This document shows, piece after piece, positions 19,865 through 22,085 of a stretch of DNA of 28,152 nt. The number at the start of each line of letters is the position of its first letter. Within the stretch, counting starts at the first letter, position 1. The translations under genes were made by a program, and so were the position numbers. The DNA is taken from IMG/VR virus record IMGVR_UViG_638341086_000001, positions 1 through 28,152 of that record; one strand, 5' to 3'. The notes under the pieces are model-generated. The model was given only the letters and a program-made list of their open reading frames with translations. It was not told the origin of the DNA and did no database searches. The stretch comes from a virus (lineage: Duplodnaviria; Heunggongvirae; Uroviricota; Caudoviricetes).

Positions 19865-20428
19865 GTGCTGACAACGCAAAAACGAAAATTTGCGCTGGCG
19901 CTCATGTCCGGGAAAAACAAAACAGCGTCAGCCATTGCCGCCGGTTATTCGGCGAAGACCGCCAGGGTTAAAGGCTCGCAGCTGGCAAAAGATCCGGAGG
20001 TGCTCGCGTTTATAGCCCGTAAACAGTGCGAAACGGTGGAGGTGGATGAGGTTCCTGTTTACCGGCAGAAAAAATCAGAGCAGGAGGATAAACCCCGTCG
20101 CCGTGAGGTGGCTGCAATACCACAGCCGGACGAAAACAATCCGGAGATGCCTCCGCCCGCGGTGATATCTCATGGTATTGAATATATGGAGGATGGTCTT
20201 CCCGATCCGGTGAAAGCTATGGGGCAGATCCTGGTGGAAAACCTGATAATTGACCCGAAACTGGCACTGGATGCGGCCTGGCGACTGGCGCAGTTCACAC
20301 ACCATAAAAAAGGCGATGCCGGTAAAAAATCGGCAAAAGGTGATGCCGTGAAAAAAGCGGCTAACCGTTTTGCGGTGCCACCACCTCCCCGGCTGGTGGT
20401 GAATAACCAGAATGAGGAAAGCGGATGA
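19865..20428 (+). CDS. Terminase small subunit
   Basis: 187 aa, GTG start after GGGAGGAGG; N-terminal KRKFALALMSGKNKTASAIAAGYSAKTARVKGSQLAKDPEV matches the small-terminase HTH-like signature; stop overlaps the TerL start (ATGA). Confidence 0.75.
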   Translation: MLTTQKRKFALALMSGKNKTASAIAAGYSAKTARVKGSQLAKDPEVLAFIARKQCETVEVDEVPVYRQKKSEQEDKPRRREVAAIPQPDENNPEMPPPAVISHGIEYMEDGLPDPVKAMGQILVENLIIDPKLALDAAWRLAQFTHHKKGDAGKKSAKGDAVKKAANRFAVPPPPRLVVNNQNEESG

Positions 20429-22085
20429 TACCTGTATGGAGCACGGCATGTCCGGACTGGGCAGAGCGCCTGAAAAAGGGGCTGTCGATTATTCCGGCTC
20501 CGATTTATCCGGACCAGGCTGCACATGCACTGGCGATTTTTAAACAACTGCGAATTGTGGATGCACCGGGTAGCCCGACATTCGGGGAGTCCTGTGCACC
20601 GTGGGTGTTTGACCTGGTGGCGGCCCTGTTTGGCTCCTACGATGCGCAGACCGGTGTTCGCCATATCAAGGAAGTGTTTATCCTTATCCCCAAGAAAAAC
20701 AGTAAGTCCACGCTGGCCGCGGGGATCATGATGACGGCGCTGTTACTGAACTGGCGGCAGGCGGCGGGCTACACCATTCTGGCCCCGACCGTGGAGGTGG
20801 CGGCTAACGCCTTCAACCCTGCCAGGGATATGGTACGACGGGACGATGATCTGGATGACCTCTGTCAGGTGCAGACACATATCCGGACCATCACCCATCG
20901 GGTGACGGACACCACCCTGAAGTGGTGGCAGCCGATCCGAATACGGTGTCCGGTATCAAGTCCGTGGGGACACTGATTGATGAACTGTGGCTGTTTGGCA
21001 AGCAGTACAAAGCGGAAGACATGCTACGTGAAGCCATCGGCGGGCTTGCCTCCCGTCCGGAAGGATTTGTGGTGTACACAACCACCCAGTCGAATGAACC
21101 GCCTGCCGGGGTGTTCAGACAGAAACTGCAGTACGCCCGGGATGTCCGTGACGGCAAAATTCATGATCCGCACTTTCTGCCGGTGATATTTGAACACCCT
21201 CCTGAAATGGTGGAAAGCGGGGCTCACCTGCTGATGGAAAACCTCGCCATGGTTAACCCGAATCTCGGTTATTCGGTGGATGAGGCCTTTCTGTACCGGG
21301 AGTACCGTAAAGCCCGGGAAGCCGGTGAAGAGACATTCCGGGGGTTCATGTCAAAACACGCCAATGTGGAAATTGGTCTTGCCCTGCGCTCTGACCGCTG
21401 GGCGGGGGCTGATTTCTGGGAAGAGCAGGGCCGTTGTATCAGCCTGGACGATATCCTGCGTCGTGCTGATGTGGTGACGGTGGGGATTGACGGCTGAGGG
21501 CTGGATGATCTGCTGGGGATGTATGTGATTGGGCGTGACCGGGAGACCCGCGAATGGCTGGGCTGGGGCCATGCCTGGGCGCATGAAACCGCGGTGGTCA
21601 GACGGAAGAGTGAGGCATCCCGGTTTCAGGATTTTGTGGCCTGTGGAGACATGACGATTGTCCGTCGGGTCGGGGATGACACGGCGGAAGTGGCGGAGTA
21701 TGTGCGTCGTATTCATGAGGCTGAGTTACTGGATCATATCGGTATTGACCCGTCAGGTGTGGGGCAGATTCTGGATTCACTGGCGGAAGCCGGGATCCCC
21801 GATGAGAGTGTGGTGGGGATAAGCCAGGGCTGGAAGCTGGGCGGGGCCATCAAAACCACCGAGCGCAAACTGGCTGAGGGAGTGCTGGTGCATGGTGGTC
21901 AGCCACTGATGGCCTGGTGCGTTGGCAATGCCCGGGTGGAGCCTAAAGGTAACGCCATTCTTATCACCAAACAGGCCAGCGGACGGGGAAAAATTGACCC
22001 ACTGATGGCGCTCTTCAATGCGGTGTCCCTGATGTCCCTGAATCCGGAACCGAAAAAGAAAGCGTATGAGGTTTTTTTCATATAA
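20425..22085 (+). CDS. Terminase large subunit, disrupted: -1 frameshift near 20919-20926 and in-frame TGA at 21495-21497
   Basis: Three consecutive ORFs (20425-20976, 20922-21497, 21519-22085) together give a typical TerL: N-terminal ATPase part (..APWVFDLVAALFG..KEVFILIPKKNSKSTLAAG..), middle, and nuclease domain starting GIDG-stop-GLDDLLG. Fragments 2 and 3 are in the same frame separated by TGA; fragments 1 and 2 differ by one missing nucleotide in AAGTGGTGG. Confidence 0.75.

What the first reader, a model, noticed from the sequence alone, without database searches (positions are those of the whole stretch)
20425..22085. Large terminase carries both a 1-nt deletion frameshift and an in-frame TGA inside the nuclease motif
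Seen: the TerL sequence is split into three ORFs. Fragments 1 and 2 differ by one nucleotide around AAGTGGTGG (20919-20926). Fragments 2 and 3 are in the same frame separated by TGA (21495-21497), giving GIDG-stop-GLDDLLG. Inference: either the prophage cannot package DNA (cryptic), or these are sequencing errors; a substitution creating TGA is less typical of homopolymer indel error than the other lesions in this window.
Basis: seen in the sequence. Interest (0 to 1): 0.5.

Follow-up and report, generated by a model that had tools for sequence, protein, structure and literature searches.

The report
Broken terminase gene in decaying prophage
The DNA-packaging enzyme gene of an E. coli prophage is knocked out by a genuine, inherited stop codon, and also carries a one-base deletion that is more likely a sequencing error, which makes this ordinary prophage decay.

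Summary
The HK97-type large terminase gene (TerL, 20425-22085) is split into three ORFs. Against the closest intact 553-aa orthologue it differs at two positions only. A G is missing from a GG at 20922, just after codon K166. G>T at 21495 turns Gly358 (GGA) into TGA.

The two lesions have different standing. The TGA is real: it appears in two separate Illumina-run assemblies (SRR1931741, SRR1931745), in an IMG/VR provirus and, by its protein products, in a 5.25-Mb NCBI chromosome. The deletion is absent from those Illumina assemblies, one of which matches the window at every other base over 4,126 nt. Only one old IMG draft provirus shares it.

Every difference private to the window is a single-base indel in a short G/C run: five indels and no substitutions. 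That is the signature of an error-prone assembly. I put the deletion at about 70% artefact and 30% real secondary decay.

The TGA alone separates catalytic D356 from D442 and D525 of the nuclease, so the prophage cannot cut or package its own DNA without a helper. This is a routine defective-prophage pseudogene. No recoding signal was found. Interest is low.

The parts
20425..22085 (+). TerL (large terminase) pseudogene, HK97-like, 1,661 nt against 1,662 nt in intact orthologues
   Evidence: It differs at two positions from intact WP_024236288.1 genes. The intact orthologue hits Pfam TerL_ATPase and TerL_nuclease. HK97 TerL 6Z6D is the only PDB relative by sequence.
20425..20976 (+). Fragment 1: native residues 1-166 (includes Walker A K94) plus 17 out-of-frame residues and a stop
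   Evidence: Pfam TerL_ATPase partial hit, E 4.5e-7. This exact 183-aa product is absent from the 15-billion-protein collection.
20920..20923 (+). Site of the missing G (AAG|GTG > AAG|TG), a GG>G contraction at the codon 166/167 boundary. In the intact sequence this G is the first base of the 3' arm of a 7-bp hairpin, CACCACC-CTGAA-GGTGGTG.
   Evidence: Hairpin fold -9.4 kcal/mol, z -2.65. Only IMG/VR provirus L014 shares the deletion.
20922..21497 (+). Fragment 2: residues 167-357 (Walker B D186/E187, ATPase lid, linker, first nuclease strand with D356), ending at the TGA
   Evidence: It gives no Pfam hit on its own. This exact product is absent from the collection.
21495..21497 (+). TGA nonsense codon replacing GGA (Gly358), a G>T substitution
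   Evidence: The same T is present in Logan SRR1931741 (L008), SRR1931745 (L009) and IMG/VR L014. The 357-aa and 188-aa products are also recorded on a 5,249,232-bp NCBI chromosome.
21519..22085 (+). Fragment 3: residues 366-553 of the nuclease domain (D442, D525), starting from the first ATG after the stop
   Evidence: (TerL_nuclease, E 4.5e-8).
19865..20428 (+). TerS (small terminase), intact; its stop overlaps the TerL start (ATGA)
   Evidence: An identical 187-aa product carries PF03592 Terminase_2. It is annotated as terminase small subunit in relatives.
19210..19575 (+). HNH endonuclease, the packaging accessory typical of HK97-like cos phages; intact
   Evidence: The exact product is found on 48 blocks of the collection. 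It was followed by an uninterrupted 553-aa TerL in all 8 shown contigs that reach the end of the TerL gene.
22149..24086 (+). Prohead protease-major capsid fusion gene, intact
   Evidence: Peptidase_S78 and Phage_capsid are assigned to the 645-aa orthologues. Annotated as phage major capsid protein.
27053..27322 (+). Head-closure gene truncated by four single-base deletions private to the window (27219, 27241, 27257, 27318). It is part of the same 'is this decay or error?' question.
   Evidence: The pattern was not found in viral or genome collections. The products are absent from the protein collection.

Best explanation
This is the large terminase gene of an HK97-head lambdoid prophage of an attaching-effacing-type E. 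coli. The closest relative sits next to ssrA. The gene was inactivated by a real G>T nonsense mutation, Gly358 GGA>TGA, which is inherited within a small group of strains. Translation stops two residues after the first catalytic aspartate, D356. The other two catalytic aspartates, D442 and D525, are left on a separate fragment that is probably untranslated. No functional nuclease can therefore form, and the prophage cannot cut cos or package its own DNA. At best it could be packaged by the terminase of a co-resident related prophage. The second lesion, the missing G after codon 166, most likely does not exist in the cell. It is probably a base-calling or consensus error of an indel-prone assembly, possibly helped by a 7-bp G/C hairpin at that spot. 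If it is real, it is a very recent secondary hit in a gene that was already dead. Shown here: the identity of the gene, the two exact changes, recurrence of the TGA, absence of the deletion from Illumina assemblies, and the indel-only error signature. Inferred: loss of function, the artefact status of the deletion, and possible trans-complementation.
For: There are exactly two differences from intact 553-aa orthologues.

The TGA recurs in L008 and L009, two Logan assemblies of separate runs that differ from each other upstream. It also recurs in IMG/VR provirus L014. The 357-aa and 188-aa products are recorded on a 5,249,232-bp NCBI chromosome. That chromosome also carries the window's exact 454-aa portal and 353-aa proteins.

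L009 is identical to the window over 4,126 nt except that it has the G. The 183-aa and 191-aa products that the deletion would create are absent from about 15 billion proteins, Logan included.

Over the 23,785 nt covered by at least 3 relatives, the only differences private to the window are five 1-nt indels in short G/C runs and no substitutions. Four of them fall within 100 nt with no substitution nearby. Natural divergence from Z1323HEC0393 is instead about 22 substitutions to 2 indels.

The active-site mapping is K94, E187, D356, D442, D525 (PMC9410871).

Relatives are under strong purifying selection. L013 differs at 27 nt yet encodes the identical 357 residues.

The same prophage lineage carries another inherited nonsense pseudogene and an IS insertion.
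Against: The deletion is also present in IMG/VR provirus IMGVR_UViG_638341086_000003. That sequence is not identical to the window: it differs by 7 substitutions and 6 indels. If it comes from an independent strain and independent reads, the deletion is real. I could not establish whether it is the same strain or read set.

The source assembly, its sequencing technology and its reads are unknown.

Two apparent indel lesions elsewhere in the window turned out to be real alleles shared by other assemblies: the 2934 deletion and the G7 tract in Q. So not every indel here is an error.

Loss of packaging is inferred, not measured.
Confidence: 0.65

Rival explanations
1. Both lesions are real. After the TGA killed the gene, a sublineage (the window's strain and the strain behind IMG taxon 638341086) acquired a further 1-nt deletion. 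This would be ordinary stepwise pseudogene decay.
For: The deletion is shared by two non-identical sequences, the window and L014. The nested pattern fits ordered decay: TGA in five sources, TGA plus deletion in two. The hairpin and GG context could also promote real slippage. The prophage lineage has other genuine pseudogenes.
Against: The window and L009 or L017 show no substitutions over about 6 kb. Very little time is therefore available for a second hit in a 1.66-kb gene. Both the window and L014 carry their own clusters of private single-base deletions, which marks both as error-prone. Their error clusters lie within 600 nt of each other, as expected for two consensus versions of one poorly covered region. 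No Illumina-derived assembly contains the 183-aa product.
Confidence: 0.3
2. Both lesions are sequencing or assembly artefacts and TerL is intact in the cell.
For: The assembly demonstrably contains single-base indel errors.
Against: The TGA is a substitution, and the window has no private substitutions. The same T is present in two Illumina-run assemblies from separate runs, in an IMG draft and, by its products, in a finished chromosome.
Confidence: 0.02
3. The interruptions are bypassed or functional. The TGA would be decoded by selenocysteine or read through, the shift corrected by programmed -1 frameshifting, or the pieces would work as a split enzyme.
For: UGA is the leakiest stop codon in E. 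coli (general knowledge). ORF2 lies in the -1 frame of ORF1.
Against: No Rfam recoding element or SECIS lies in 20300-22200. There is no X XXY YYZ slippery heptamer at CTG AAG TGG. The flanking sequence is unchanged from relatives that need no recoding. Each break separates the residues of one active site: K94 from E187, and D356 from D442 and D525. The allele is rare and recent, not conserved.
Confidence: 0.01

Closest known systems
Bacteriophage HK97 large terminase (gp2; PDB 6Z6D) and its HNH-assisted cos packaging module
   Same: It has the same two-domain architecture, a packaging ATPase plus an RNase H-like nuclease. Walker A Lys, Walker B Glu and the three catalytic Asp residues align. 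The gene neighbourhood also matches: HNH endonuclease, TerS, TerL, then a protease-capsid fusion and the portal.
   Different: Sequence similarity is remote (E 4e-10). In the window the reading frame is broken twice, so the protein cannot be made.
Intact orthologue WP_024236288.1 (553 aa) and the TerL genes of Stx-converting and PPompW-type lambdoid prophages of E. coli
   Same: It is 99.9% identical at the DNA level, with two differences. The family is present in about 1,250 of 5,426 complete E. coli genomes and in 93 phage records at 90-99% identity.
   Different: Those genes are single uninterrupted 1,662-nt ORFs. The window has the TGA at codon 358 and lacks one G.
Terminase-defective prophages of the E. 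coli O157 Sakai 'defective prophage pool' (e.g. Sp4; PMC2669165)
   Same: Each is a lambdoid prophage with an inactivated packaging enzyme, sitting in a genome type that usually holds several related prophages. Rescue by a co-resident terminase with the same cos specificity is expected to be possible.
   Different: In Sp4 an IS insertion disrupts the small subunit. Here a point nonsense mutation hits the large subunit. No induction or packaging data exist for this prophage.

Membership tests
Terminase large subunit, HK97-like (Pfam TerL_ATPase PF03354 + TerL_nuclease PF20441) | Both Pfam domains above their gathering thresholds | tested here: met
   The intact orthologue, which differs at 2 nt, scores 44.7 and 37.2 bits against cut-offs of 23.7 and 24. 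Window fragments 1 and 3 hit the ATPase and nuclease models respectively. Fragment 2 hits nothing on its own.
Terminase large subunit, HK97-like (Pfam TerL_ATPase PF03354 + TerL_nuclease PF20441) | Walker A Lys, Walker B Glu and three catalytic Asp residues alignable to a solved TerL | tested here: met
   K94, E187, D356, D442 and D525 align with HK97 K60, E154, D302, D388 and D471. All are encoded in the window but are spread over three ORFs.
Terminase large subunit, HK97-like (Pfam TerL_ATPase PF03354 + TerL_nuclease PF20441) | One continuous reading frame encoding both domains (a functional gene) | tested here: not met
   There is a frameshift after codon 166 and a TGA at codon 358. It is therefore filed as a pseudogene of the family, not a working member.
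Terminase large subunit, HK97-like (Pfam TerL_ATPase PF03354 + TerL_nuclease PF20441) | Packaging-module context (TerS immediately upstream, HNH endonuclease, portal, protease and capsid) | tested here: met
Terminase large subunit, HK97-like (Pfam TerL_ATPase PF03354 + TerL_nuclease PF20441) | ATP-driven DNA translocation and cos cleavage activity | not testable with these tools
   This needs an in vitro packaging or nuclease assay, or an induction experiment.
Genuine pseudogene of a defective prophage (as opposed to an assembly artefact) | The disabling change is reproducible in independent sequence data | tested here: met
   This row concerns the TGA. It is present in L008, L009 and L014, and its 357-aa and 188-aa products are recorded on an NCBI chromosome.
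Genuine pseudogene of a defective prophage (as opposed to an assembly artefact) | The second disabling change (1-nt deletion) is reproducible in independent sequence data | tested here: inconclusive
   It is present in L014 only, and the independence of L014 is unknown. It is absent from L008, L009, L012 and L013 and from 18 of 18 other relatives. It matches the window's indel-only private error class.
Genuine pseudogene of a defective prophage (as opposed to an assembly artefact) | Other signs of decay in the same prophage | tested here: met
   An IS3-family insertion at 1121-2430 is absent from four related proviruses. A TerB-like gene has an internal stop shared with Z1323HEC0393. The head-closure lesions are probably errors and are not counted.
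Programmed recoding site (selenocysteine, readthrough or -1 frameshift) | Recoding signal (SECIS, slippery heptamer with a stimulatory structure) and conservation of the interrupted arrangement | tested here: not met
   There is no Rfam hit and no slippery heptamer. The interrupted form is confined to a handful of near-identical sequences, while more than 1,200 genomes have the uninterrupted gene.

The most novel reading that the evidence does not exclude
The TGA allele is retained because its 357-aa product has a function. That product is a complete packaging ATPase with no nuclease. It could enter the terminase rings of co-resident or superinfecting related phages and poison cos cleavage. 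This would be a prophage-encoded dominant-negative that restrains competitors, or that locks an effector-carrying prophage in place. Nothing here tests this. The allele is seen in several assemblies, but they are so similar that simple recent ancestry explains its presence.
Probability: 0.02. Interest if true: 0.5.

Novelty: already known. Interest (0 to 1): 0.08.

Why it matters
The finding matters little beyond annotation. It says that this prophage, a relative of effector-carrying lambdoid prophages of attaching-effacing E. coli, cannot package itself. Any mobility it has would depend on a helper terminase.

The more useful result is methodological. It is a worked case of separating a real inherited nonsense mutation from probable single-base assembly errors. 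The method used exact-product look-ups in independent read-set assemblies and the indel-only spectrum of differences private to the assembly. Frameshift calls in this assembly, such as the one in the head-closure gene, should not be read as biology without read support.

Tried and rejected
1. Recoding of the TGA or the frameshift was rejected. There is no Rfam element, no slippery site, and the flanks are unchanged from intact genes.

2. Identifying the source strain, the 5,249,232-bp chromosome, the SRR runs or IMG taxon 638341086 from the literature failed. The chromosome could not be fetched either.

3. Scans of genome contigs and metagenome contigs for the TGA, the deletion and the head-closure pattern found nothing. 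Viral contigs gave only L014 for the TGA and the deletion. The head-closure pattern, the +C pattern and the IS-junction pattern gave nothing there. The window's own assembly is therefore not in those collections.

4. Logan contigs L010-L013 were set aside. L011-L013 end exactly at 21494 and L010 starts at 21518. They were retrieved only because their truncated products happen to equal the query, so they do not cover the G/T site.

5. I first assumed that every indel against Z1323HEC0393 was an error. That is wrong for the Q-gene G7 tract and the 2934 deletion, both of which recur in independent assemblies.

6. Sanger band compression at the hairpin would explain an error shared by two assemblies. 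It is plausible for the TerL site. The head-closure region shows no unusual folding (z -0.12), so it is not a general explanation.

7. Structure prediction and the large protein searches were not run, because the identity of the gene was never in doubt.

Full report
**What is in the sequence.** The region holds three ORFs: 20425-20976 (183 aa), 20922-21497 (191 aa) and 21519-22085 (188 aa). The first is in a different frame from the other two, which share a frame and are separated by a TGA at 21495-21497. The translation around the stop reads VGIDG*GLDDLLG.

**What the gene is.**
- The 1,661-nt stretch matches a 1,662-nt gene annotated as terminase large subunit in about 1,250 of 5,426 complete E. 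coli genomes, at 90-99.9% identity. It also matches 93 phage records, mostly Stx-converting and PPompW-type lambdoid phages.
- The intact orthologue carries Pfam TerL_ATPase and TerL_nuclease.
- Its only relative with a solved structure, by sequence, is HK97 TerL, 6Z6D (E 4e-10).
- The surroundings form a standard HK97-type packaging and head module: HNH endonuclease, TerS overlapping TerL by ATGA, a protease-capsid fusion and the portal.
- The window as a whole is a lambdoid prophage. Over 1-19.5 kb it is about 99.9% identical to a prophage of E. coli Z1323HEC0393 that lies next to ssrA and carries type III effector genes downstream. TerL is intact in that prophage.

**The two lesions, exactly.** Against the closest intact genes (Z1323HEC0393 and PRO_A-1443, both encoding WP_024236288.1) the window differs at two positions only.
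- One G is missing from CTGAAGGTGGTGG.
- G>T at 21495 changes GGA (Gly358) to TGA.

I mapped the active sites through the HK97 alignment and the residues published for HK97 (K60, E154, D302, D388, D471; PMC9410871). This gives Walker A K94, Walker B E187 and catalytic D356, D442 and D525. The frameshift after K166 separates Walker A from Walker B. The stop at 358 separates D356 from D442 and D525. Either lesion alone would abolish function.

**The TGA is real.** An exact-sequence look-up found the 188-aa C-terminal product, and a 357-aa N-terminal product, in the public protein collection. The 357-aa product is what the TGA alone would give, without the deletion. Both are recorded in Logan assemblies of two separate runs, SRR1931741 and SRR1931745, and on a 5,249,232-bp NCBI chromosome.
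- The two Logan contigs carry the T at the equivalent of 21495.
- They differ from each other upstream, in the HNH region, so they are not one sequence.
- An IMG/VR provirus, IMGVR_UViG_638341086_000003 (L014), also carries the TGA.
- A substitution seen in at least four separate assemblies is not an artefact.
- The allele is rare. No genome in the RefSeq complete set has it, and there were no hits among species-representative genomes or JGI metagenomes.

**The deletion is doubtful.** Four results point towards an artefact.
- The SRR1931745 contig is identical to the window at all 4,126 aligned positions except that it has the G. The SRR1931741 contig also has the G.
- The 183-aa and 191-aa products that the deletion would create are absent from the whole collection, Logan included.
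- I listed every position where the window disagrees with all relatives, over the 23,785 nt covered by at least three relatives at 96% identity or more. The list contains five events. All are single-base indels in short G/C runs and none is a substitution. They are +C at 6209-6211 and deletions at 27219, 27241, 27257 and 27318.
- The last four lie within 100 nt of the head-closure gene, with no substitution among them.

Genuine divergence in this prophage looks quite different. Against Z1323HEC0393 there are about 22 substitutions to 2 indels. With an indel share near 10%, five out of five private changes being indels has a probability of about 1e-5. The assembly therefore carries indel errors at roughly one per 5 kb, and the TerL deletion (GG>G) is of exactly that kind.

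In the intact sequence the missing G is the first base of the 3' arm of a perfect 7-bp hairpin, CACCACC-CTGAA-GGTGGTG (-9.4 kcal/mol, z -2.65). Such a structure can cause systematic miscalls in some chemistries. It could equally favour real slippage.

**Evidence that the deletion is real.** L014 shares the deletion. It is the only difference found solely in the window and L014, apart from one thinly covered substitution. L014 is not a copy of the window.
- It has 7 substitutions in the capsid gene.
- It lacks the four head-closure deletions.
- It has its own private single-base deletions, at about 27803, 27810 and 28551 in window coordinates.

If L014 comes from an independent isolate and independent reads, the deletion is real and marks a sublineage. 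But both sequences look like error-prone drafts. Their differences are confined to three tight patches within otherwise identical sequence. Their indel clusters lie within 600 nt of each other. That is what two consensus versions of one poorly covered region of the same strain would look like.

The TGA lineage also shows no substitutions over about 6 kb. That leaves very little time for a second real hit in a 1.66-kb gene. Weighing all this, I put the deletion at roughly 70% artefact and 30% real. I could not identify the IMG taxon, the SRR runs or the chromosome.

**Mechanism and consequence.** This part is inferred. With the TGA, translation yields at most a 357-aa ATPase-plus-linker polypeptide. 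A separate nuclease remnant would lack the first catalytic strand. In HK97-like cos phages TerL, with TerS and the HNH protein, cuts cos and drives DNA into the prohead (PMC9410871). Without a nuclease domain the prophage cannot produce packaged genomes by itself.

Relatives are under strong purifying selection. One contig differs at 27 nt yet encodes the same 357 residues. The break is therefore a loss, not a tolerated variant.

The prophage shows other genuine decay. An IS3-family insertion at 1121-2430 is missing from four related proviruses. A TerB-like gene has an internal stop shared with Z1323HEC0393.

'Cryptic' needs one qualification. Genomes of this type often carry several prophages with near-identical terminases, up to 7 matches per genome. 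In O157 Sakai, a prophage lacking an intact terminase was still packaged, most likely by the terminase of a sibling prophage (PMC2669165).

**Alternatives.** Recoding is excluded as far as sequence can show.
- No SECIS or other Rfam element is present.
- There is no slippery heptamer at CTG AAG TGG.
- The flanks are unchanged from genes that need no recoding.
- The interrupted form is not conserved.

'Both lesions are artefacts' is contradicted by the recurrence of the TGA.

**Novelty and score.** A nonsense-inactivated terminase in a decaying lambdoid prophage is a familiar, expected finding. The second lesion is probably not biological. The finding is confirmed as an observation but is ordinary, so interest is low. 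The one speculative reading not excluded is that the ATPase-only fragment acts as a dominant-negative against related phages. I give that about 2%.

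Noticed in passing
window 27053-27322 (deletions at 27219, 27241, 27257, 27318): The head-closure gene carries four single-base deletions in GG, GGG or CC runs within 100 nt, with no substitutions. The first three together restore the frame and the fourth truncates the protein to 89 aa instead of 116. All four are private to the window (absent from L004, L005, L007 and L014), so they are almost certainly consensus errors.
   Followed up: yes
window 25636-25662 (junction of ORFs 24298-25662 and 25659-26720): The 454-aa portal ORF ends 4 nt into a 353-aa ORF (ATGA overlap), just after a G5 tract (TTCAGGGGGATACTGAAAAAATGA). 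NCBI annotates this pair as one 'frameshifted' portal gene in every complete-genome relative I fetched. An Illumina-run contig (L017) has the same G5. Other E. coli proteins (P0066, P0073, P0075) read straight through as a fusion (…MFRGDTEKMTEREL…), consistent with one extra base in that tract. Whether this is a polymorphism or a programmed shift producing two portal forms was not resolved.
   Followed up: partly
window 25881-26254: The 353-aa ORF downstream of the portal contains 162-nt tandem repeat units about 90% identical to each other (repeated PVPRDGRDYDP…KSLTPDDVRPMLEQMVKEAVSHI motif). It also has a weak, sub-threshold CBM_5_12 hit near its C-terminus. Short-read assemblies break here, which is why the exact protein is recorded on only one finished chromosome.
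   Followed up: no
window 12603-12609 (Q antiterminator, ORF 12582-12971): A G7 tract, where Z1323HEC0393 and two IMG/VR proviruses have G6, shifts the first 11 or so codons of the Q antiterminator and leaves a GTG start. The G7 form is not an error. The identical 129-aa product occurs in two unrelated read-set assemblies (ERR302897, SRR14228802), in different prophage backbones. This may be a slippage-prone tract.
   Followed up: partly
window 1121-2430: An IS3-family insertion sequence sits in the early-left region, flanked by a 3-bp overlap. It is absent from four otherwise 99.9-100% identical IMG/VR proviruses (L019, L021, L022, L024). In Z1323HEC0393 the same IS is accompanied by loss of the adjoining 4.4 kb (window 2431-6846).
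   Followed up: partly
window 13187-13549: A TerB-like (tellurite-resistance family) gene has an internal stop at codon 23. Z1323HEC0393 shares it, and NCBI flags it there as 'internal stop'. It is a genuine inherited pseudogene in the same prophage lineage.
   Followed up: yes
window 6209-6211: An extra C (CCC where all seven covering relatives have CC) lies in an intergenic stretch. It is private to the window and not found in IMG/VR. It belongs to the same probable error class as the head-closure deletions.
   Followed up: yes
L006 19040-21493 versus window 15449-15459: The closest relative, Z1323HEC0393, has an IS66-family element (ISEc22) inserted in the DUF1737/SASA/DUF6645 gene. That gene is intact in the window (616 aa, 14121-15971). 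The two copies of this prophage have therefore decayed in different places.
   Followed up: no
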